In this document: piece after piece, positions 12,001 through 51,095 of the stretch
Numbering within the stretch: the first letter of the stretch is position 1
How the letters are laid out: each line of letters begins with the position of its first letter
From: Spizellomyces punctatus DAOM BR117
Taxonomy: Eukaryota
Length of the DNA: 64,000 nucleotides
Direction: 5' to 3' (one strand)
NCBI GenBank assembly: GCA_000182565.2
Contig: KQ257468.1
Made by a program: the position numbers and the translations under genes
The notes under the pieces: generated by a model
Databases searched by the model: none
Told to the model about the DNA's origin: nothing
Seen by the model: only the letters and a program-made list of their open reading frames with translations

Positions 12001-15000
12001 TTGGTTATATGAGTGGAATCAAACTGATGGAGGAAGCTACCGAAAATCAGTTGGATGCCTTAGCGGGTGGAGAGACGTTGAAGCGGGAGGCTTTCTTCTG
12101 GGAAAACATTCGTACGACTCGGAGATCCGGACTGAGGCTAATGAAAGCGCTGCTGGAAACTGGCTTCGCCCGCCAAATGAGTATATTAATTAGCCAGCGT
12201 AAGCAGGAGATTGTCTATGCTGGCATGGGAACCGAGGATGACAACATGGATCTAAAGATTCTGGCATGGTTAAACGACTATGTGAGTCCCCTCTCCTGTG
12301 ATATATAATGGAAATACGCTTCCAGCTTATCATCTGTTATCTGCACACTACAGTGCCAACGGACACTGCTTCAATACCTTGAATTCTTGTCTGTAACGGC
12401 ACCGCCAGAAATCTTCGCTGATGTTACACCCTCGGTCGAGGATCTCGTGGAGATCTACGGATTAGACCCCGAGCAGGCTTTCTTGATAGCTAGGCCGAAG
12501 TTGGTGAACTCTGTCAAGGTATGTTCTCGCTTTCCCCATCCTACCCAATATCACCCTTGTGTTGCTCGCAGCCCGGGATGTCTTATCAGGACGTATGCTA
12601 ATACTGAAACAGCAGAAACAGCTCACCAATGGTAGTAGCAAAAGCGAGCAAAGTAATATCATGGATATTGATGACAAGGCTAAAGAAAGTATCCCTGACA
12701 CTATGGAGGTTGACGGACCCAACCATGATGCTCCAGCTCATGGTGATGCCGCCAGCGTGGAACATCCTGGCCTCGCCGATCCAGCAACGAATGCAGTATG
12801 GCAACCTGGCCTTTATGAGACCATTCGAGCTTCAGTCAATATCCTTCCACCGCACGCATGGCGTGGGATTAGTCCTGCGTTTTATGCGACTTTCTGGCAG
12901 CTGAGCCTGTACGACATTGTGTTGCCAAAGCAAAGATATCATGGAGAGATTGCGAATCAGAAGAAGAATATCCGACAAATGGAAACAGAAATTGTGCAAC
13001 TCGAGCGAGAACGAGATAACGTTGATGACGGGCTGCGGAAAGCGAACGACGAGATCAGGAAGAAGAGGAAAGAAATAGATAGAGCAAGTCTAGTGATCAA
13101 GGCTCTCGACGGCGAATGGAGGATGCATGAAGAGCATTACAAGCGCATCATGGAAAGAGTCAAAGCGGAGAGTCCATTCTGGTTCCATTCAAGTATGGTA
13201 GCTGTCTGGTTTAGTATGCGGCCTTGAAGGTACTGACAAGATTCGAATGTCTTCAGGCGTAGGTCGTAACGAGATAATCAACACGATGATACAGTACTGC
13301 TTGCAGCCGCGTTGCGTGCAGTCACCAGCAGATGCAATGTATTGCGCAAAGTTTATAATGATGATGCATTTGTTGGGGACACCGAATATTCCAACTGCGT
13401 CGCTTTACGACAGGGTGAGTGTTGAGGAGAAGTCAATCTACAGGAGATCCTTGGCCTAGTGCTAACACTGAGCATGCAGATGTGCAGCAGGGATATCATT
13501 CACGCGTGCATCTTTGCCGGTACTGAGGATGAGGCAAAAAACTACGGACTGTTCTTGGCGGTTATTTTCCGCACACTATCCACCTGGCACAAAAATCCTG
13601 ATCTCTTCAAGAAGGAAGCAATCGGAGAAGGCCTTCCAGGTTTTCTGAAGAAGTGGCCTACTGGGGTGATCACTGGGAATATGGATCTCAGCAATGCAGA
13701 TTTCATCGAGTACGAAGAATTCCGTCAAGCGCTACGAAAATGGCATTTGAAATTATGTAAGGCGATCTTGGCTTGTCTGCAGAGTGGAGAGTATATGCAG
13801 ATTCGAAACGCCATTCTCGTTCTGGATCGCGTCAATGAATATTTTCCAGCGACCAAGCAAATGGGGAACACCATCAAGATCGCTGTACAGGAGCTGGAGA
13901 GAACGGAGCAAAGGGGCGATCTAAAACAGCTTGCCCGCAGTTACGGAACAAAATTGCAGTTGCGAGAGGGACATTGGCTGGACAATCGCGAGTTCTGTCG
14001 AGTCGTTGAACGCAAAGGAAGTGGTATGGTTGACGGTATGGGGACCCCCGGTTCAGAGAGTGTCCCTGCCTCTCGGCGAGAGAGCGAGATTTTGAAACCG
14101 GAAGAAGGACAATTGAAAGAAGAACCCGGTGCAACCGATGGGGAAAGGAACAAAGATGAGGCTAAAAAGCAGATGGATGACCGAAGGCCACGGGAGTCGA
14201 TGAAAGAACCCTCTGGGACTAGCACGTCAGCTCCTCATACCCCGACCCAAAGGAAAGAGGAGAGAGAAGGTGGCGCGAAGGATCGGGATCGAAGAAAGAA
14301 CGATGAAAGCGTATCTGGTACAGTCACCGCCAATTCAGCAGAGAGAGGGGAAAGGGAGCGTGGGGAAATATCGCATAGGGAGCATGGCCAGAGTTACAGC
14401 CATGAAAAGCCTCGATTTAATGAGAGAGATAAAGAGAATCAACGACGAAAGGAAGGAGCCGGGTCGGTTGGCATTAGTGGGACGTCCGCTACCAAGGAAA
14501 AGGAGAAAGATAGAAAACCCGCGCGGGAGCGTGAGAAGGGACAAAAAGATACAGAAAAGGACAAGGAGAAGGAAAAAGAAAAGGACAAAGAGAAACGGGG
14601 GGATAGGGCCAAGGATCGAGACCGAGATAGGAAGAGAAAAGAAAGGGTAGGTCCCGAAAAGCGGCTGTCTTCTCGACTTGAGCGAATCGTCTTTGAAACA
14701 TATTAATCTCGTTTGCCTTTCCTGTAGGAAACGGAAAGCATGACTGAGGATCGAAAGGATCGGAAACGCGATCGTGAAAAGGACGAACGAGAGAGCAAGC
14801 GGAGCAGGAGAGATGATGGTATGGTAGCTGTTGGTTTGCGCTCACTTTCAAGGTATTCCAAGTGGTTCTATTAACACGATGTACGCTTATGAAGTGGGAT
14901 CCTCCGCCGCCTCGGAGAAGCCTGCCAGCGAGAACGGACCTGCGGGAAATGGCGCAGTTGGACGAAAAAGACGTGCTGAAGAGGGTACGTTCGACTTGAT

Positions 15001-18587: not shown

Positions 18588-21500
18588 CTAGACCTTCCCC
18601 CGGTGAAACCGCTTAGGTTTCTGTTCACTTTCTTCATATGCGTCCTTTTGATCAATATGCTTTCTCTTTAACCTTCTTGACGGGTTTCTCTCGTCGTCGG
18701 ATTGAGATGCATCATAGTCCGATGACCCTTCCACAGCTGTGAACGTTGGCACCGCTTCGATCAGGGTTTTCACACTATGCCTTCCTTTGTCATGTGCCTC
18801 TTTCTCCTGCTCCACCATTTCTGTACTCCCGCCGATGAGCTCCGTCAACGTTTCATCACTGCCAAAGAACTTATCAATCGTAGGCTGTAGCCGTTTCTCT
18901 TTTTCATCCCTGGCAGATGAAGATTCGATCGTATCCATGGTTGCGCTGTGTCCGTCAATACTTTGGCCAACAACATCCAACTTTCTGCGGATAAGGGGCC
19001 ATTGGATATCATCTGCAGCAGTACCATCAGCCAATGTGTAATCACAGATATTCAACAAACTTACGAGCGTACCCAATGTCCCCCGTGCGAGAATATACTT
19101 GATGTCCACGTTTTCTTCCCGCCCGATTCGGTGCGCCCGATCCTCTCCTTGTAACAACTGAGCTGGATTCTGTGGAGATGGTAAGCCTTGGGTGACTGAA
19201 CTCATCCTTTCGATCATTTAACGTACCCAAAACAGCTCGGCAAAGACAACTGAAAGTGCACACAGTGAATGTGTCAATATGACAGTGAGACAAGTCACGT
19301 ACTCCAACTAGGTATGAACGTACCCAAGTCCGCGGCGTGCAAGGTCAGCCTAAAAATGCGCTATCAGATCTCGCCGACCGATTCTATGACAGAAGCTGGA
19401 CTGCCATACCCTACGCCAGCCGCTGTGATACTCAAAACCGCTACCCGCGTCTCCGGGTCATTTTGAAATTCCTCACATAGGTCCTGTCGTACTTGCGACG
19501 ATGTACTTCCGTCAATTCTAACGTATCGTGTCTAATCGACTATCAGCCTAAGAATCAGTTGACGGGAAGGAAGAAGCAGATACCTACTTTTAGCTGATTC
19601 AATTGCTCAGAGACAGTGTCGAGGACATGTGTATGGTGCGCAAATACTATGAATTTTTTTGACGTGTGATCATGGAGCTCTCGTAAGTACTCTTGAACCG
19701 CCGGCAGTTTCGCAATCCCAGTTTCACGATACTAGCAAAAATAGAATCTGTTGGCAGGATTGACGAACATTGTAACCTGTTAAGGTACCTTTACCATTTG
19801 AATCAGAAGGGTCCTCTTCTCGAGGGTAACTTCCTGTCGGTGCTTGGTATTACTGGCTGTTTTCGCGTCTTCCAGCCTTTCGTTGATTTCCTCATTTTGC
19901 GCCATGAGAGCTGCAAAGGTCTGCTTGCTTTTTGCAGCAATATCAACGTAAACGCACTGCCGGGTCTTGCTAGGCAGTTCCTTTAGGACGTCCTTTTTCA
20001 GCCTTCGAATGAGGACAGTTTGCTCAAGAAACCAGTGCAGTTCGGCAATGTTCGAATTTCCTGAGGTTTACGGTTTCGTGAGCTCTCAACCACCTTCTTG
20101 TATAACAACCTAGTACCCGTACCTGTGAAATCCCATCCGTACCGATTCTGTAGCGTTGACGTAAGTTACAATAGACACGAACATCCAGGGAAAGATTCGT
20201 AGACGTACCTGCTTGCCGTCACAGTATCTGACACCAAATTGCACAGCAGTAGTAAAGGAAGGTAATAACGCACTAATCTGCGTGAAAAGTTCGATCGGTC
20301 GAGATAGCGCAGGGGTCCCTAAGAAAGCCACCGTCCCATTGGTTCCAGCGCGCCTTCTAATCCTACAATTCGGTCTTACCCGACAAGAGGAGGGCACGTT
20401 TCGCCCCCTTTAGTAATGGAATAATTGTCTTGGTCCGCTTAGCCTGCCGGTACATTCCCTCGATCAGTTCAGCAATGAGTCGCAATTTCCGCAGAACAGC
20501 CTACCTCCCGACTTTTTAGAAAGTGGGACTCATCTGCAACTACTATCCGGTATTTGGCCTTTTCTAGCTGCTTCTTGATGTCCTCTCTACTCGCCAAGTC
20601 ATAACTCGTGATGACAAAATGACTTTCAGAAGAAACACGGTCCTTGGAGGCAAAAATGACCTGTATCCTTTCCTCGGGGAGGTCGAGCCATTTGCAGATC
20701 TCTGCTTGCCAGGTGAGACGTAGAGATGAAGGGCAAATCACCATTACGGGCCACTCGCTGCGATAAAAGGCGCAGATAGCGATGGCTTGAATTGTCTTCC
20801 CTAATTTTCATTGGCAGTTTGGTGAGCTCTCTCAACAAATCATGAGGAGCGAGAAAGGGCAGGTACGTACCAAGCCCCATTTCATCGCCTAATAATACCT
20901 TTCCCTGTTTCTTTATTGCTTCTAAGACTCCCACTTTCTGGAAGTCCATCAATCTTTCATATACATACGGAGGTATTTTGGTTTGCATTGACTGCAGAAT
21001 ATTGGAATCAGTCTCAGTCGATTTTTGAGGCGTCTTCAACAGTTTGTGCACAAACGTCGGCAGTTCATTGATTCGCGGCAAAAAGCCATCGTTTTTCAGA
21101 TCCTCCAATTTTTTGATAACTTCATCGTAACGACCCGAATCAAATATCCAGACTTTGGCTTCTGAGTCCCATTCTGCATCTTTTACGGCGTGGAAAATCT
21201 TTGGAATTGCTTCATGAAAGGATGTTTTGGCACAGATGTGTGAAACATCGCGAACGGTCAATGTGATCTCTATAATTGAGGAACCGGAGTCTGCACTATT
21301 GGGTTTCTTCCCCTTATTACCCTGCCAAGGTAACGCACGTTTGGTAGCAGTAGAACCAGTAATGGCAGAGTCAACTACATTGGCAGCTCCGCTATGGTCT
21401 GATTGTGCTGCTTTCACAGGAGGTGTATCCCATTCAAAATACTTGCATTTCCTATCCGGGCACTGGGTAGGATTGGCTTCTCAGGCAGTCAAAAGAGCGT

Positions 21501-33142: not shown

Positions 33143-33215
33143 GGGCCTATGGCCCAATGGATAAGGCGCCTGACTACGGATCAGGAGATTCGAGGTTCGA
33201 ATCCTCGTAGGCTCG
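33143..33215 (+). tRNA. tRNA-Arg(ACG), intronless
   Basis: GGGCCTA/TAGGCTC acceptor stem, D arm TGGCCCAATGGATAAGGC, anticodon arm CCTGA-CTACGGA-TCAGG, T arm CGAGG-TTCGAAT-CCTCG; T4 run ~20 nt downstream. Confidence 0.97.
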
Positions 33216-35691: not shown

Positions 35692-38674
35692 ATGGTATGT
35701 GGGAGAATCAGTCGCCTCCTGAAAATGGGGTGAATGAAGGGCATGGCGAATGCTCATCGTCGAGTGTGGATTGTTAACCCAATGTTTTGTTGTTTATTTG
35801 TAGGTGAACTTCTCAGTAGACGAGGTACGGTGTAAAATGACGCGCGGCTGTCGGAAAAGACCTTCAAAGGACACCCCGGCAAAAGTTGTTTGAAGCTGGA
35901 TGGACCTAACAATGTATCCTTTTGTAGATCCGGGCCCTTATGGACAAGCGGACTAACATCCGTAACATGTCCGTCATTGCCCACGTCGATCACGGAAAGA
36001 GTACCTTGACCGACTCTCTCGTGTCGAAGGCCGGTATTATTGCGTCTGCCAAAGCTGGTGATGCTCGGTACACCGACACCCGGCAAGATGAACAGGACCG
36101 TGGTATTACCATCAAGTCAACTGCCATCTCTATGTTCTTTGAAATGGCCGAGGAAGACTTGGCTGATGTGAAACAGAAGACGGAGGGTAAGTTTCATGTT
36201 CAGACCAATTTATATGAACCTAGATGAACTCATACGGTCGGTCGTCTGCAGGTGCTGGGTTCTTGATCAACTTGATCGACTCTCCCGGTCACGTTGACTT
36301 CTCATCTGAAGTCACTGCTGCTCTTCGTGTTACCGACGGTGCTCTCGTCGTCGTGGATACCATCGAAGGTGTCTGTGTGCAAACCGAGACCGTACTTCGT
36401 CAAGCGCTTGGTGAACGAATCAAACCCGTTGTTGTCATCAACAAGGTTGACCGTGCCCTGCTCGAACTTCAGCTCACTAAGGAAGATTTGTACCAGGTGA
36501 GGATTTGAATTGATTCGCAGTTGTTCAGGACAATTACTCAGCTACGTCCACCAGACCTTTTCTCGTACCATCGAGAGCGTAAACGTGGTGATTGCCACCT
36601 ATCTCGACAAGAGCCTTGGCGATGTGCAAGTGTACCCTGAAAAGGGTACCGTCGCCTTCGGTTCCGGTCTCCATGGATGGGCTTTCACCCTTCGCCAGTT
36701 TGCCAACCGTTACGCCAAGAAGTTCGGCGTTGACAAGGAGAAGATGATGGGTCGTCTTTGGGGTGAGAACTACTTCAACCCCAAGACCAAGAAATGGACC
36801 AACAAGGGTACGGACACCGACGGCAAGTCCCTTGAACGTGCCTTCAACACCTTCGTTCTCGACCCCATCTTCCGTCTGTTTGATGCGATTATGAACTTCA
36901 AAAAGGAGGAGACTGCTAAGATGTTGGAGAAGCTTGAAATCACCCTTAAGAGCGACGAGAAGGATCTCGAAGGCAAAGCTCTTCTCAAGACTGTCATGAA
37001 GAAATTCTTGCCTGCTGGTGATGCTCTCCTTGAGATGATTGTTATCCACCTTCCCTCCCCTGTCACCGCCCAGAAGTACCGTTTCGACACATTATACGAG
37101 GGTCCTCTCGATGACGAGTGTGCTATCGGTATCCGCGACTGTGACCCTACCGGTCCTCTCATGTTGTACGTGTCGAAGATGGTACCGACATCCGACAAAG
37201 GACGTTTCTACGCATTCGGGCGTGTGTTCTCTGGTACGGTTCGTGCTGGTCTTAAGGTCCGCATTCAGGGTCCCAACTACGTCCCTGGCAAGAAGGATGA
37301 TATGTTCCTCAAGAGCATCCAGCGTGTGGTTCTTATGATGGGTCGTTACGTGGAGTCTATCGAGGACTGCCCTGCTGGTAACATTATCGGTCTCGTCGGT
37401 ATCGACCAGTTCTTGCTCAAGTCGGGTACCATCACGACCTCTGAGACAGCCCACAACTTGAAAGTTATGAAGTTCTCCGTCTCTCCTGTCGTGCAGGTCG
37501 CTGTTGAGGTCAAGAACGCCAATGACCTGCCCAAGCTTGTGGAAGGTTTGAAGCGTCTCTCCAAATCTGACCCTTGCGTCCTCTGCTACACATCCGAGTC
37601 CGGTGAACACATTGTTGCTGGTGCTGGTGAACTTCACCTCGAAATTTGTTTGAAGGATCTTGAAGAGGACCATGCTGGTGTCCCTATTAAGACCGGTGAC
37701 CCCGTTGTCCAACTTCGTGAAACTGTCCAGGCTGAATCCAGCATTGTTGCCCTCTCCAAGTCCCCCAACAAGCATAACCGTATTTTCATGAAGGCGGCCC
37801 CCATGCAGGAGGAGCTTGCCCGTGACATTGAGACTGGAAAGGTGTCACCCAAGGACGATTTCAAGGCCCGTGCTCGTATTCTTGCTGAGGAATACGGGTG
37901 GGATGTCACTGATGCCCGTAAGATCTGGTGTTTCGGTCCCGACGTGTCTGGTGCCAACTTGTTGGTCGACACCACTAAGGGTGTACAGTATTTGAACGAA
38001 ATCAAAGATTCTTGCATTGCTGCCTTCCAGTGGGCCACTAAGGAAGGTTGTTTGGCTGAGGAGAACATGCGTGCCATTCGTTTCAACATTCTTGATGTTG
38101 TGCTGGTAAGTGTATGAAGATTTTTGAAAACTGTTGTGGTTATATTCAAAGATTTCATTTCTCTCAGCACGCTGATGCCATTCACCGTGGTGGCGGTCAA
38201 ATTATCCCCACTTGCCGTCGTGTCTGCTACGCCGCGATGCTCACTGCGAACCCTGGTGTCATGGAGCCCGTATTCTTGGTCGAAATTCAATGTCCTGAGA
38301 GCGCTATGGGTGGTATCTATGGTGTCCTTAACAGGCGTCGTGGTCACGTATTTGCTGAGGAACAACGCCCTGGAACCCCCTTGTACAACGTCAAGGCCTA
38401 CCTGCCCATCATGGAGTCCTTCGGTTTCACTGCCGACTTGCGTGCCGGAACCGGAGGCCAGGCCTTCCCCCAGTCCGTGTTCGATCACTGGCAGATTATG
38501 TCGGGATCGCCACTTGAGGCAGGCAAACTGCAGGACATGATTCAGGGTGTGCGTAAGAGGAAGGGTCTCACTCCTGAAATTCCCCCTCTCGACCGATACT
38601 ACGGTAAGCGAAGACAGTGCTTGCTTTCATCTTACCTGTCGTTCTAACGATTTTTTTGTCCAGACAAATTGTAA
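35692..38674 (+). CDS. EFT2: Translation elongation factor 2
   Basis: ATG-only first coding exon, 21-nt exon [43 protein letters not shown], diphthamide site [11 protein letters not shown], ends YY|DKL*; strong codon bias. Confidence 0.99.
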
Positions 38675-46004: not shown

Positions 46005-46443
46005 GTTGTCATGGGTGCAAGTTTCCATGCATTGTGTTGGTCTGATTCAACAATTTGTATAATTGTATATGACTGTTCTGCTCGGTTGATGAGGTAGTTC
46101 TCCCGCTAGAGCGGTAAGCTACACTGTTACATAATTTAATAGAGTCTGTATTTCATCCTATAAAATCAAGCTCCTCCTTTCTAATATGACATACATCATC
46201 CAGTCGACTCAACAATCATGATGGGAAGGCGACTGTGAACAGCATCTCACTAGCGTTAGTACAGACCATACTACATGCACCCCAGCGACTTCCAAAGAGA
46301 TTATAGCACTACACTCAGGGATTCAAGCCAAACTCGGCTTTGAACATGTCAACATGTCGGCAATTGGCGACTCCTAAGAACTTGAAGGCTCGTATCTAAA
46401 ATGACACAAATCAATAACTGATCCTGCAGAAGGTGTAATTGTC

Positions 46444-46570
46444 AGGCCGAGCGAGAAAAGATCATCACTGTAGAAGTCTCAACATGAGCAGCGCCTAAGT
46501 GTCGCTATTCAGTGGATTGACAGATATTTTGGGGCAAATGCCACTAATCACTTCTCTTCTCGCTCGGCCT
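46444..46570 (-). ncRNA. Intronic box C/D snoRNA, SNORD110/snoR14-like 18S guide
   Basis: 14-bp perfect terminal stem aggccgagcgagaa/ttctcgctcggcct; box C GTGATTA (46551-46545) and box D ATGA (46465-46462); D' CTGA (46512-46509) preceded by ATCTGTCAATCC, complementary to conserved 18S GGATTGACAGAT. Confidence 0.85.
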
Positions 46571-46679
46571 AACGGGCAGCTGCGACTTACCATGTCACTT
46601 TCACGAGAGCGGAACAAACAGCGTCTATGAAGGGACATGACAAGAGTTAGTCATTGTCAGCGCCCACTTCGTACACACC

Positions 46680-46778
46680 GGATGATTCTTGCATCAGAAC
46701 TTCTTAGAGATTTAGCTTATCATTGATCACTGACAGTGATCTGCCATAGTGTAATTTCCTCCTTTGCAAGAATCACCC
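46680..46778 (-). ncRNA. Intronic box C/D snoRNA, U61/SNORD61-like 18S guide
   Basis: 14-bp terminal stem gggtgattcttgca/tgcaagaatcatcc; 3' end CTCTAAGAAGTT-CTGA matches the recalled U61 3' end and pairs with 18S ACTTCTTAGAG; variant box C AGGAGGA; C' ATGATAA. Confidence 0.88.
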
Positions 46779-47040
46779 ACTCTGATTGTATGACACTCAC
46801 CTCTATGCAGTTCCACCAAATGGGCCACGATACGCCCTTGACAGTGGCATTGACACGGAGTCAGGAGCGCGAAACTTCACCCAAGTAGCGGATGACGCAA
46901 ACGTCAGGCTGACGGCTCGGGGAGAGGTCGCATCGACAATATTATTTGTATGGAGACCACTACTTTGCTACTATCACAAAGATAGGATGTTAACAATGTA
47001 ACACATAAATAGACCATTAAACAGCATGGACGCGCGATCA

Positions 47041-47216
47041 ATCTCAGATTCGCCTTAACATCCAACATTCTTGTCCTTCCCCCAAAGCTGACGTCCGGTA
47101 TGTGGGGAGAAAGCATTACATTTCCTACAACCTCACGCAGCCGATGACTGCTCAGCAGCGGAGTTCTCTCTTGGAGATGAAGGCCAAGTAGGGATACCAA
47201 AGATCTCATCCTTGAC
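47041..47216 (-). ncRNA. Long (~175 nt) intronic box C/D RNA, orphan or scaRNA-like
   Basis: Box C AGGATGA (47212-47206), D' CTGA (47155-47152), hairpin gcagtc-atc-ggctgc, C' GTGAGGT, inserted hairpin ctttctcccca/tgggggaagg, box D CTGA (47047-47044), outer stem catgg..acgcg.atca/tgat..cgcgt.ccatg. Confidence 0.7.
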
Positions 47217-47487
47217 GGTGCCATGATACGCGTTGAACCATGTACATACCATCTTGGATATCGGGCCACTTCCACCGGCGGGGCTCAAGGAGTTTCATTG
47301 ATGGTTTGTTCTTTTGCCGGTCCACAAAGACGATGACTAGGTCATCGAGAGATGGTTGAGGAATACGGAAGCGAGCTGAATTCTGGAGGAAGATAAAGAA
47401 AATAGACATAATCACGTGGTGGCACAGCGCTAGTCGCGGCTGTTGGTCTCTCCGCTCGCAAGTGCTGTATGGCCAAACGCATCTGAC

Positions 47488-48851
47488 ATGGACTTTTCGG
47501 TTTTTGTCGCGAACACATTGGTAGTCGATAAATCAATATGGCATGTATGGCTGATGGGATTGTCTGGTAAGAACGAGTTTATCTTCTTGGGTTATATATG
47601 TCTGATCTTACAAATGTTCTGCAAAACGCTAGTGGAACAAGCGACGGTGTATGTGCAAAAGAAGCACCCCAACTTGTCTTCAAACATTCCAGCCCTTCGA
47701 TCTTTTATCACATCGCAGGTAGGTCAAAACAAAGGATCTCTCACAAGGGATATCCTTTTGACCTTCTCGCCAAAAGTACCGCAATTTTGAGCTTCTAGAA
47801 CACTATCTACACCGGCCGAAGACACTCCACACCCAGCTCCTCTTCCCCATGCCCTCCGAAACCAAAAGCTACCTCATTGAAACCTATTACAGCTTTGATG
47901 AGCGCGTTGTGCGTGAGTTTCTCGGCAAAAAGTTTTCATCGCGTGTTAGAAAAGACTTGGAGGATGTATGCGAGAAGACGCGGGTGCCTTTGGGTGGATG
48001 TCGACGCATGTTTGATAATTTTAAGAGGATCGTAAAGACTGTCGAGGATGCAGACAGCAACATGGTGTTATTAATCCAAAAGGAGTTTCTATTGCCGAGA
48101 GTGTTGGCAAAGTAAGTTTGCCTAGATGACTTTAGTTCGCTCGTCCCTGAGTATTGACGTGCCCATTTCGTCTCATGCATCGTTTGCACAGTCAATACGC
48201 ACATATAATATTCATAAATAACTACCGTCTGGACACATTCAAACGAAGATTAGCTCACATCCGGTTTTCGGATTTCGATTACGGTAGGACAGGAGAGCTT
48301 TGTACCTATAGTACCCGGACCTAACTATATCTTCCATCTCAGTCGCATCCATATTCATGCAATACTTCTCAAGTCCCAATATCTCCCCATTGGATGAACT
48401 CGACGGAGCGCTTGCCCAAGACGCTAGGGACCTGAGAACCATTATTTTCAATCAGAAAGGAGTTCTCGAGGAATATCGCGCACTTGTAACCACCCATCTC
48501 GCCAGCCTAGGACATTCCTCCATCATGGAGAAGGGCAGTCAAATAGCCTTTAAAGTTATTCTGCGCAATGTTTTCACAATAGGATCAAGTTTGGCCCATA
48601 GCAAGGAGCTGCGCGATATATTCATTGCCTTACAAGAGAAAGTCGTGGAGCCAGGCATCGGCATGGGCTGGGCATCGTCAGATCTGGAACTGTTCTTGTC
48701 CTCATGCAAGCTGCAGTTTACGGCTCTTCAGAGTCTAAATCCGCAGATCCGGGAACGATATGCAAATTCGTGTTCTCGATTGTTAGACGGCATCAAATTT
48801 GCTGGGTTACGCTTTTACGAAGCAATCAATTCCGGGACATCTCAAACATAG
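47488..48851 (+). CDS. FIBP: Acidic FGF intracellular-binding protein homologue
   Basis: VFVANTLVVD..WLMGLS|V, YRNFELLEHYLHRP..TQLLF, LIETYYSFDERVVREFLGKK..RKDLEDVCEKT..CRRMFDNFKRIVK. Confidence 0.9.
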
Positions 48852-48948: not shown

Positions 48949-51095
48949 TCATACTACTTTGTAATCCTCAGTTAGAAGTACGGTGTCTTGCGAAAACGAT
49001 ATCGGAGCGCCATTGACGCTCGTGACATCTCGGATCTGATGTTTCAGGAGATTTGAGTTAGCTGTCGAAATAATACATCTGCAACAATTTTAGGACCTAC
49101 CCCAATGCTGCAAAATGTCTTCCCGCTTGTAAACGAAGCAACGATTGGGAAGAAAGCCGCTGTATCGTCGGTGTTGACACTGAATTCTAGGAGGCCAGAT
49201 TTATTCGACTGATCGATAATAGGCAACTGCCATTGAATAAATCGTCTCGCTCTATCGATTTCATAGTGGCCCTCAACATCCCCAACCGTCGGTGGAGTAT
49301 TACCGCTGTAATGAATTTTCTTTAGCGTTGATCAGCAAAGGAGCGGGGACCGATCACAACATACGGGTATGGAATTGAGATGATTACATCCCGCAGCTCA
49401 AGTTCATTTGATTGAAGTTCGTATTCAATGTTAACATCGCATGAACCAGTTCCAGATGGTGACGGCCAGCAGTTGACTACAGCCGAGAAATGGCTGTCAA
49501 TGAAAGCACGGCGTCGCAGTCAAAATTGCACACACGTACTCAACAAGGGGACCTGACTCTCATCGTTCGTCGCAAACCGCCATCGCAGAATATTCAGAGC
49601 TTGGTTTGTTGGGAAAGGTTTCGAAGGGTCTCTCACACCGAGGATGGAGCTATCGGCAAAAAGCTTCTTGTCGACTTGAGGGTGTGTCTAAATGTAAATG
49701 TATCCACCTTACTATTAGCGGTTGATTTGCAATTGATCTCTGAAATTACAAGACATACATTATATTGCACATTTGGGTCGTGCTTCATGTTCAATGCAAC
49801 GCGTAGATGGCCCTTTGCGGGATCCGTAACTTTCAGTTGCATTTCGCCCTTCACTTTCATATCCTGTAGACCGCCGTCGCGATTCACAACCACTATGATC
49901 TTCTCTTCCAGGGCAACGTGCACGCTACATGCAAAGATAAGCAACCGCCAAGTAAATTACAGATTTGTGTAGTACCTTTCAGTTGGAACAGCAGGATGAT
50001 GCACAGGAGCTGCGATTCCACCAGTTGGGCTCGTGACAGGTGGTGGCACGTCGGGAATGCCTTCGTCAGCTTTGATAGTGTTGACCAACATCGCATCATT
50101 CTGCTTCCTGCCCAATTGCATACCCTTTCCTCGGCCTCCTGCGGGAGGGGCGGTAACGGGCCTAAAAAAACAGTCGATCAGTAATTTTGCGGCTCAGCTT
50201 CACAGAGAATGCAACAGAGTACTAACGCCGAATAAGAAGAACGTTCAGGTTCCGGGGTAATGTTCCGGACGGGCTCGTAGGGGCTACCACTACGGAATCC
50301 ACCAGGACCTGACCCTCCGTAACTACCGCCACCACTACCAAAGCCGCCACCAAAGCCTCCAGCACCGCCAGTGTAACCCATTTTCGCCATTTCACGCTTT
50401 TGCATCTCCATCATCCTGGCTTTCCTACGGGCATCCTCCTTGGCCTGCTTCTCCTGGTTTCTCGCAATCTCTGCCTGCACACGCTCCTCATGCGATTCCA
50501 TCTCCGTAATCGTCCGGATCTGAGCGATGTTGACGTTTTCGCGATATCCCAGAGAAACTACTTCATCGAATACATGAGCAAGTTCGAACGCTTGAAGAGC
50601 TATTTCCCGTTCATTCAGGGAGCGGCAGTACTCAGACACAAGGCGAGCAAAGAGATGCAGCGTATCAATGTCTTGCAGAATGTTTGAATGCTTGTTTGTG
50701 ACGAGGACCATATAGAGGTCTTCCAACGGCTGTATGTTGCATGCACAGTTAAAAGTTGTGGATTGCGGTGCTGCAAGAGATGCAGACCTCACCTGATACA
50801 CATATCGAACTGTTTCAGTCTCCACAAACGTATGTTGGTCACTAGTACCTATGAGTTTTGGAAAGGATGCCAACAATCCTTCAATGCGAGACCGAGGCAT
50901 CTCTACGAACTGACGCGACATAACCGCTGCAGAAAAGCATGTTGAGTAAAAAATGCGCAGATTCGCTGCTCAGTGTCCACATACCCTTGCCGGCCTTTGT
51001 GCATATCGAAGCAGCTAGGACAACCTGTGGATGCGGTTGCTTGTCAGCCCGCGCGCAATCGGAGCCGCTCAAGTTAAAGAGGGAGCACCCACCAT
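48949..51095 (-). CDS. RET2: Coatomer subunit delta
   Basis: M|VVLAASICTKAGK|AVMSRQFVEMPRSRIEGLLASFPKL, SNILQDIDTLHLF, EMESHEE, GMQLGRK, mu-homology domain. Confidence 0.96.

What the first reader, a model, noticed from the sequence alone, without database searches (positions are those of the whole stretch)
47041..47216. Long orphan C/D RNA whose D guide points to U5 snRNA G37 (scaRNA-like)
Seen: full C, D'-hairpin-C', D architecture with extra inserted hairpins, and AAGGCGAA-U-CUGA just before box D. Established: U5 loop I reads UUCGCCUUUUAC and G37 is 2'-O-methylated in vertebrate U5. Inference: the 8-bp duplex places the D+5 nucleotide exactly on that G, which suggests a spliceosomal snRNA guide. 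The duplex is short, so this is a hypothesis. The D' element (GAGAGAACUCCGCUG) has no confident target; partial complementarity to LSU GAGUUCUCUUUU is possible.
Basis: partly seen in the sequence, partly recalled or inferred. Interest (0 to 1): 0.75.

Follow-up and report, generated by a model that had tools for sequence, protein, structure and literature searches.

The report
Intronic orphan box C/D snoRNA candidate
This is most likely a real but targetless small nucleolar RNA sitting in an intron of a non-coding gene that carries other such RNAs, and the proposed link to the U5 spliceosomal RNA rests on only eight base pairs and could not be tested.

Summary
The motifs exist, on the MINUS strand (47216->47037). 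They are box C-like AGGAUGA (47212-47206), D' CUGA (47155-47152), a weak C'-like GGAUGU (47063-47058), AAGGCGAA-U-CUGA (47056-47044), a 5-bp terminal stem and a 5-bp outer stem. The 'inserted hairpins' fold no better than shuffles.

The motif alone is not above chance in the window: 4 hits against 1.55 in shuffles. The context is what counts. The candidate lies in a putative 279-nt first intron of a spliced, apparently non-coding minus-strand host gene. The next two introns each hold a box C/D snoRNA with a 12-bp 18S guide.

Neither guide of the candidate has a conserved match in 109 fungal or other eukaryotic rDNA loci, although both neighbours score with the same method. Rfam finds nothing.

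The U5 arithmetic is correct for human U5 (C36-Gm37-C38). The duplex is only 8 bp and stops where the invariant loop would allow more. This organism's U5 was not obtainable.

There is no evidence of stable accumulation: depth over the candidate body is 0.3-6.3x, and two body bins lie at or below the 1.7x of pure intron.

Verdict: probably a genuine orphan intronic C/D snoRNA (about 0.6). A U5 guide is about 0.1.

The parts
47037..47216 (-). Candidate box C/D snoRNA, about 180 nt including both strands of the terminal stem
   Evidence: Sequence read. Motif scan. No Rfam match.
47206..47212 (-). Box C-like AGGAUGA (RUGAUGA with U2->G)
   Evidence: The validated neighbour snoRNA departs further (AGGAGGA).
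47152..47155 (-). Box D' CUGA. The spacer 47170-47156 is the putative D' guide, and D'+5 is C47160.
   Evidence: No conserved rRNA target. The 12-bp LSU match stops before D'+5.
47058..47063 (-). Weak C'-like GGAUGU. It leaves only about 10 nt of spacer (47057-47048) before box D.
   Evidence: Read. Assigned by inference only.
47044..47056 (-). D-side antisense AAGGCGAA (47056-49), U47048 and box D CUGA (47047-44). D+5 is C47052.
   Evidence: Anchored scans found no conserved rRNA partner.
47021..47225 (-). Outer stem in the intron flanks: CAUGG (47225-21) with CCAUG (47029-25)
   Evidence: part of the MFE structure. The kind of flank pairing that can help release of an intronic snoRNA (inference).
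46971..47249 (-). Putative intron 1 of the host gene. Donor AAGAUG|GUAUGU, branch-like UGUUAAC (46995-89), acceptor ..GAUAG at 46971 (or UAG at 46968). Length 279-282 nt.
   Evidence: Splice consensus read. Depth falls from 14x (47299-47345) to 0.3-6x inside and rises to 7-18x at 46782-46922. No junction read was listed for this intron.
46625..46800 (-). Intron 2 (176 nt). It holds a U61-like C/D snoRNA at 46768-46689.
   Evidence: Loose end at 46801 (7 reads, agreement 0.98) equals the reverse complement of 46624-46610. An 80-nt small-RNA contig with a 5' adapter, depth about 350. Rfam snoU61 29.2 bits, E 2.8e-4, below its gathering score of 55. The guide hits 18S in 25 loci.
46396..46590 (-). 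Intron 3 (195 nt). It holds a C/D snoRNA with guide AAUAUCUGUCAAUCCA|CUGA (box at 46512-09).
   Evidence: Loose end at 46591 (11 reads, agreement 1) equals the reverse complement of 46395-46383. 12 Watson-Crick bp to 18S AGGAUUGACAGAUUGA in 36 loci. Depth 62x at 46500-46546.

Best explanation
The element is a genuine intron-encoded box C/D snoRNA. It is made from the first intron of a spliced, non-coding, multi-intron snoRNA host gene on the minus strand.

Inferred mechanism:
- After splicing and debranching, exonucleases trim the intron back to a core particle.
- The core forms on the kink-turn made by box C (AGGAUGA) and box D (CUGA). That kink-turn is closed by the 5-bp terminal stem and helped by the 5-bp outer stem.
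- Its only plausible working guide is the short spacer next to box D (about 10 nt, core AAGGCGAA). This would place fibrillarin on the G of a 5'-UUCGCCUU-3'-like site.

That site is not in the conserved core of rRNA, so the RNA is an orphan. Its target would be either a non-rRNA such as an snRNA or a lineage-specific stretch of pre-rRNA.

Shown: the motifs, the spliced host transcript, the snoRNAs in the two neighbouring introns, and the lack of a conserved rRNA target. Inferred: intron 1 itself, stable accumulation, snoRNP assembly and any methylation.
For: 1. Host gene.
- Minus-sense RNA reads cover 46500-47345.
- Two junctions are proven by loose ends that match downstream exons: at 46801 (7 reads) and at 46591 (11 reads).
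- The plus-strand FIBP gene gives reads of the opposite mate direction, so the strand call holds.
- The spliced model has no ORF above 55 aa.

2. One snoRNA per intron.
- Intron 2 holds an 80-nt RNA with exact ends in a small-RNA contig (depth about 350). Chimeric contigs join its 3' end to a stretch that carries its predicted 18S site. Rfam snoU61 matches it full length at E 2.8e-4.
- The guide in intron 3 pairs 12 Watson-Crick bp with 18S in 36 loci.

3. Motif and placement.
- The candidate fills the 279-nt first intron with C, D', D and a terminal stem. Such a motif is expected about 0.003 times in one intron by chance.
- Box D lies 54 nt before the branch-like A (46990), against 47 nt in intron 2. 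These coordinates were read.

4. Its box C departs less from consensus than that of the validated neighbour.
Against: - No direct sign of a stable RNA. In the RNA raw-read run, depth over the body is 1.5, 6.3, 2.3, 0.3 and 1.4x per bin, against 1.7x in pure intron and 7-18x in exons.
- The small-RNA contig run gave no contig on the candidate. That run also gave none on 46500-46575, the part of the intron-3 snoRNA that fell inside the stretch laid.
- No junction read for intron 1 was among the loose ends shown. Nine more were not shown.
- The terminal stem is weak and offset. The first motif scan missed it.
- C' is poor, and no fold beats shuffles.
- No orthologue could be examined, so conservation is unknown.
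- No target was found.
Confidence: 0.6

Rival explanations
1. One reading: the D-side element guides 2'-O-methylation of the U5 snRNA loop I guanosine that corresponds to human Gm37. The RNA would then work like a scaRNA.
For: - AAGGCGAA (47056-49) is the exact complement of UUCGCCUU, and C47052 (D+5) falls on the G.
- Human U5 reads C36-Gm37-C38 (passages of PMC8283771).
- Gm37 has no guide listed in Table 1 of PMC7960923. The site is also methylated in Drosophila, as Gm38 (passage of PMC13228274).
- No rRNA target competes.
- My own estimate, which is reasoning and not a tool result: an 8-bp Watson-Crick match that puts D+5 on one of about 140 known methylated rRNA or snRNA sites arises for roughly 1 in 100 random guide pairs.
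Against: - Only 8 bp pair. Guide positions 10-12 (U, U, G) face the invariant loop letters U, U, A, where pairing could easily have been longer.
- Position 1 also mismatches human U5.
- This organism's U5 is unknown.
- S. cerevisiae U5 has no Nm (PMC7960923).
- In the main text of the fungal snoRNA survey PMC5824354 the phrase 'U5 snRNA' occurs 0 times. The only snRNA target I saw there is U6-70, for Nc_CD_54. Its supplements were closed.
- Other RNAs with UUYGCCUU would fit equally well. From recall, the 5' region of fungal U2 is one.
Confidence: 0.1
2. It is not a functional RNA. It is either a chance constellation of short motifs or a decayed former snoRNA in a long intron that is degraded after splicing.
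For: - The motif count in the window is not above shuffles: 4 against 1.55 +/- 1.19.
- The stem is weak and offset.
- Structure is not above shuffles.
- Read depth is near intron background in most bins.
- No target and no Rfam similarity.
Against: - The motif sits on the right strand of an unusually long first intron of a host gene whose next two introns each hold a working snoRNA. The chance expectation for that placement is about 0.003.
- The validated intron-2 snoRNA is just as poorly covered in the same RNA run, at about 3x.
Confidence: 0.25
3. It is a non-methylating chaperone snoRNA of the U8 or snR190 kind. The stretch just after box C (GGUAUCCCUACUUGG, 47198-47184) would pair with the 5' end of LSU rRNA, and more weakly with the helix 73 strand.
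For: - 15 bp (2 G.U) with UCAGGUAGGGAUACC, about 15 nt upstream of the ITS4 site at the LSU 5' end, in L091. The same duplex has 3 G.U in L034.
- The 10-mers of this stretch match 17-18 of 109 loci.
- The same stretch pairs 12 bp (3 G.U) with GUCAGGUGGGGA in L091 and L041.
- Yeast snR190, of similar length, acts through two such elements, in domains I and V (passages of PMC8536666).
Against: - Not above chance. 21 of 300 (L091) and 36 of 300 (L034) shuffles reach the score. 32 and 118 of 300 do so in duplex folding against the LSU 5' end and the H73 region.
- This LSU stretch varies between taxa, and the organism's own sequence is unknown.
- No D'-like box follows the element.
- Rfam's snR190 model gave no match.
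Confidence: 0.05

Closest known systems
Orphan box C/D snoRNA families of fungi (survey PMC5824354: 6 of 68 C/D families orphan; passages read)
   Same: Box C/D RNA with boxes in place and no conserved rRNA or snRNA target.
   Different: No sequence relative could be examined, so it cannot be placed in any of those families. No Rfam family matches at E <= 10.
Intron-encoded snoRNAs of non-coding multi-snoRNA host genes (UHG/GAS5 type in animals, similar genes in filamentous fungi; recalled)
   Same: One snoRNA per intron, short exons without an ORF above 55 aa, and a spliced transcript.
   Different: The host gene here is unnamed. Only introns 2 and 3 are proven by reads.
Guides for the U5 loop I methylations: human scaRNA5/6 for Um41 and scaRNA10 for Cm45 (Table 1 of PMC7960923); a Drosophila guide for U5 Gm38 (name recalled, not seen in a call)
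   Same: A C/D guide whose D+5 position would fall on a methylated loop I nucleotide.
   Different: Only 8 bp here. No Cajal-body signal was recognised. The target sequence and its methylation are unknown in this organism.
Yeast snR190 (PMC8536666, passages)
   Same: A long C/D RNA (about 180-190 nt), no detected methylation target, and possible pairing to two LSU regions.
   Different: The pairing here is not above chance, and the sequences are not similar.

Membership tests
Box C/D snoRNA (general class) | Box C RUGAUGA near the 5' end and box D CUGA near the 3' end | tested here: met
   AGGAUGA at 47212-06 (one departure) and CUGA at 47047-44.
Box C/D snoRNA (general class) | Terminal stem of 4-5 bp that brings C and D together | tested here: inconclusive
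   GUCAA/UUGAU is 5 bp including one G.U. It uses the R of box C and sits 2 nt from box D. It passes the loose scan and fails the stricter one.
Box C/D snoRNA (general class) | Internal D' and C' boxes | tested here: inconclusive
   D' CUGA is present at 47155-52. C' is only GGAUGU at 47063-58.
Box C/D snoRNA (general class) | Accumulates as a discrete stable RNA bound by fibrillarin, Nop56/58 and Snu13 | tested here: inconclusive
   Depth is 0.3-6.3x against 1.7x intron background. No small-RNA contig. Protein binding is not testable here.
Box C/D snoRNA (general class) | Antisense element of about 10 bp or more that places D/D'+5 on the target | tested here: not met
   No conserved rRNA partner in 109 rDNA loci, while both neighbour snoRNAs pass. 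Only 6 of the 109 loci cover the LSU 3' half. None is from this organism.
Any Rfam snoRNA family | Covariance-model match | tested here: not met
   No match at gathering score. None on the candidate at E <= 10. The neighbour matches snoU61 at E 2.8e-4.
snRNA guide for U5 loop I Gm (scaRNA-like) | Complementarity to this organism's U5 with D+5 on the loop G | not testable with these tools
   No genome is held. Against human U5 the duplex is 8 bp in the right register.
snRNA guide for U5 loop I Gm (scaRNA-like) | The guide is conserved in orthologues, and the G is methylated | not testable with these tools
   No orthologue could be fetched.
Acetylation guides snR4 / snR45 / SNORD13 | Two-part complementarity flanking the acetylated C of 18S helix 34 or helix 45 | tested here: not met
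   Duplex energies against both regions of L034 are no better than shuffles: 73 and 230 of 300 are as good.
snR190 / U8-type chaperone | Long complementarity to LSU rRNA beyond chance | tested here: not met
   The 15-bp match is reached by 21 and 36 of 300 shuffles.

The most novel reading that the evidence does not exclude
The RNA is the missing kind of guide for the conserved U5 loop I guanosine methylation. Human Gm37 has no guide listed in the 2021 review table (PMC7960923). Here the guide would be carried in a nucleolar-type intronic snoRNA host gene of a fungus-like eukaryote. That would show that U5 loop I methylation and its RNA guide predate animals.
Probability: 0.1. Interest if true: 0.65.

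Novelty: new member of a known kind. Interest (0 to 1): 0.3.

Why it matters
If real, it adds one orphan box C/D snoRNA and a multi-snoRNA non-coding host gene to an organism whose snoRNAs seem poorly covered by Rfam. Only one of the three snoRNAs in this gene gets even a sub-threshold match. Orphan snoRNAs are where non-rRNA targets are found. The one concrete lead, the U5 loop I G, concerns a methylation in the exon-aligning loop of the spliceosome, and its human guide is unlisted in the review I read (PMC7960923). As it stands this is an ordinary finding with an untested target idea.

Tried and rejected
- Whole genome: none is held. U5, U2, U6 and the organism's own rRNA could not be fetched.
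- Earlier findings of this scan: nothing by place, sequence or words.
- Sequencing runs: no RNA holder listed.
- The metatranscriptome contig run X23 laid nothing.
- A literature search for the guide-plus-D-box string found 0 papers.
- A search for the 18S-like letters of the chimeric contigs found 5 viral contigs, none with an Rfam match. It found 0 metagenome contigs.
- A control search for U5 in 14 well-known genomes rang in none, so that route gives no eukaryotic snRNA.
- The Atlas look-up of the EF-2 ORF gave no usable taxonomy. The organism remains unidentified, and I did not try to trace any run or study.
- Literature searches for a U5-G37 guide were unproductive. Gu et al. 1996 on S. 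pombe snRNA modifications is not held.
- The 10-mer conservation profile was uninformative. The candidate's maximum was 18 loci, against a shuffled mean of 32.9.
- The degenerate-box scan of the whole window gave mostly false positives.
- The D' 8-mer CAGCGGAG matches the 18S 3' end / ITS1 border in 14 loci. It is only 8 bp at no known methylated site, and I rejected it as chance.
- I considered and rejected U14, U3, snR4/snR45-type and H/ACA readings. The expected 18S complementarities or boxes are absent (sequence).

Full report
WHAT IS THERE

The finding lies on the minus strand. Reading 5'->3' from 47225 the parts are:
- an outer stem strand, CAUGG (47225-21);
- the terminal-stem strand GUCAA (47216-12), whose last A is also the first base of a box C-like AGGAUGA (47212-06);
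- a 50-nt spacer ending in GAGAGAACUCCGCUG (47170-56);
- CUGA (47155-52, D');
- an insert of about 88 nt;
- a weak C'-like GGAUGU (47063-58);
- UUAAGGCGAAU (47058-48);
- box D CUGA (47047-44);
- GA, then UUGAU (47041-37), which pairs with GUCAA;
- CCAUG (47029-25), which pairs with the outer CAUGG.

C' is poor. The terminal stem is offset by two bases.

None of the 'inserted hairpins' folds better than shuffled sequence. The z-scores are 0.19, 0.94 and -0.47 and 0.62 for the whole RNA.

IS IT MORE THAN CHANCE?

Not by motif alone.
- A strict scan (box C with at most the one departure, CUGA 50-260 nt on, stem of 5 bp or more within 2 nt) missed the candidate.
- A scan loosened to include it finds 4 pairs in the window, against 1.55 +/- 1.19 in 60 shuffles.

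The weight comes from context.

CONTEXT: A snoRNA HOST GENE

In an RNA raw-read run, first mates on the minus direction cover 46500-47345. The plus-strand FIBP gene (Pfam PF05427) gives the opposite direction, so first mates read the sense of the RNA in this run.

Two loose ends are spliced junctions.
- Letters before 46801 (7 reads, agreement 0.98) are the reverse complement of 46624-46610.
- Letters before 46591 (11 reads, agreement 1) are the reverse complement of 46395-46383.
- These give introns 46800-46625 (GUGAGU..ACUAAC..UAG) and 46590-46396 (GUAAGU..UAG).

Intron 2 holds an 80-nt RNA (46768-46689).
- It was seen as a small-RNA contig with a 5' adapter, at depth about 350.
- Two further contigs join its 3' end to letters that contain CUUCUUAGAGGGAC, its predicted 18S site.
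- Rfam's snoU61 aligns to exactly these coordinates at 29.2 bits, E 2.8e-4, below the gathering score of 55. Its box C reads AGGAGGA.

Intron 3 holds a guide, AAUAUCUGUCAAUCCA|CUGA. It pairs 12 Watson-Crick bp with 18S AGGAUUGACAGAUUGA in 36 loci. The region is covered at 62x.

Upstream, AAGAUG|GUAUGU (donor at 47250/47249), UGUUAAC (46995-89) and GAUAG (46971) delimit a 279-nt intron that contains the candidate.
- Depth drops from 14x in the exon to 0.3-6x inside, and recovers to 7-18x in the next exon.
- No junction read for this intron was among the loose ends shown, so intron 1 is inferred.

The spliced model has no ORF above 55 aa.

A C/D pair of the candidate's quality is expected about 0.003 times in one 279-nt intron on one strand (criteria set after the fact).

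EXPRESSION

There is no sign of a stable RNA from the candidate.
- The body bins read 1.5, 6.3, 2.3, 0.3 and 1.4x, against 1.7x for pure intron.
- The small-RNA contig run has no contig on it.
- This is weak negative evidence. The validated intron-2 snoRNA has only about 3x in the same RNA run, and the small-RNA run also lacks the part of the intron-3 snoRNA that was laid.

TARGETS

No genome is held. I therefore fetched 109 rDNA-bearing metagenome contigs (352,580 nt) with the ITS4 primer. Six of them reach through the LSU 3' half. They are fungi and other eukaryotes, not this organism.

With guides anchored at the boxes and pairing required at position 5:
- The two neighbour snoRNAs gave their 18S sites in 25 and 36 loci.
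- The candidate's D guide gave only G.U-rich matches in a variable 18S stretch (8 loci). No run of 8 bp or more recurred in more than 3 loci.
- The D' guide gave only the 8-mer CAGCGGAG, at the 18S 3' end / ITS1 border, in 14 loci.

- AAGAGAGAACUC pairs with GAGUUCUCUUUU (12 bp, 1 G.U) in 4 of 8 loci scanned.
- The duplex ends before D'+5, where A faces C47160.

The strongest unanchored match is GGUAUCCCUACUUGG (47198-84) with the LSU 5' end (15 bp, 2-3 G.U).
- It recalls U8 (recalled) and snR190 (PMC8536666).
- 21 and 36 of 300 shuffles reach its score.
- That LSU stretch differs between taxa.

Duplex folding against 18S helix 34, helix 45, the LSU 5' end and the helix 73 region was matched by 73, 230, 32 and 118 of 300 shuffles.

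Rfam gives nothing for the candidate at E <= 10.

The RNA is therefore an orphan with respect to conserved rRNA.

THE U5 IDEA

The register is right for human U5.
- Passages of PMC8283771 give C36-Gm37-C38.
- Table 1 of PMC7960923 lists Gm37 with no guide, and lists guides for Um41 and Cm45.
- Drosophila has the same site as Gm38 (PMC13228274).

By my own estimate (reasoning, not a tool result), landing an 8-bp Watson-Crick duplex with D+5 on one of about 140 known methylated sites happens for about 1 in 100 random guide pairs. The coincidence is worth noting.

Against it:
- Eight base pairs is short.
- The next three guide bases (U, U, G) oppose the invariant U, U, A of the loop, where a selected guide could have paired.
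- S. cerevisiae U5 carries no 2'-O-methyl (PMC7960923).
- The main text of the fungal snoRNA survey names a U6 target but never 'U5 snRNA' (PMC5824354; supplements closed).
- The 8-mer would fit any RNA with UUYGCCUU.

The organism's U5 is the missing datum.

VERDICT

This is probably a genuine intron-encoded orphan box C/D snoRNA (0.6) in a newly recognised multi-snoRNA host gene. A decayed or chance element remains possible (0.25). The U5-guide reading is a lead at about 0.1, and a chaperone reading at about 0.05. It is a new member of a known kind, of modest interest unless the U5 target is confirmed.

Noticed in passing
window 46689-46768 (-): A U61-like box C/D snoRNA in intron 2. Rfam aligns its box C position to AGGAGGA instead of UGAUGA. 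Its RNA ends are fixed by a small-RNA contig. Two contigs join its 3' end to its predicted 18S target stretch, as ligation chimeras would.
   Followed up: partly
window 46440-46575 (-): An intron-3 C/D snoRNA with a 12-bp guide to 18S AGGAUUGACAGAUUGA. From recall this is the yeast U1269 / snR55 site. It has the highest RNA depth of the locus (62x). A 16-nt stretch just upstream of its box C (GGCCGAGCGAGAAGAG) is complementary to the spacer before its 3' CUGA (CUUUUCUCGCUCGGCC).
   Followed up: partly
window about 46150-46235 (-): A possible fourth snoRNA in the same host gene. UGUUGAGUCGA, followed by CUGG and AUGAUG, pairs 11 bp (1 G.U) with 18S UUGACUCAACA in 38 of 109 loci.
   Followed up: no
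window 46315-46468 (-): A strict C/D pair (AGUGAUGA ... CUGA, 5-bp stem CUACA/UGUAG) straddles the proven acceptor of intron 3 at 46396/46395. It could only arise from unspliced RNA, or it is a chance match.
   Followed up: no
window 18761-18859 (-) and 13358-13526 (+): Two further strict C/D motif pairs, with 6-bp and 5-bp stems, turned up in the motif scan. The second lies in a long ORF region.
   Followed up: no
window 33143-33215 (+): A tRNA gene (Rfam tRNA, 61.9 bits). The anticodon loop reads ACG, so probably tRNA-Arg.
   Followed up: no
window 47762-48851 (+), 49044-49956 (-), 36501-38117 (+): Neighbouring protein genes: an FIBP-family gene, an adaptor/coatomer medium-subunit-like gene, and an elongation factor 2-like ORF. 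The FIBP gene starts about 300-500 nt from the host gene's start and is transcribed divergently.
   Followed up: partly
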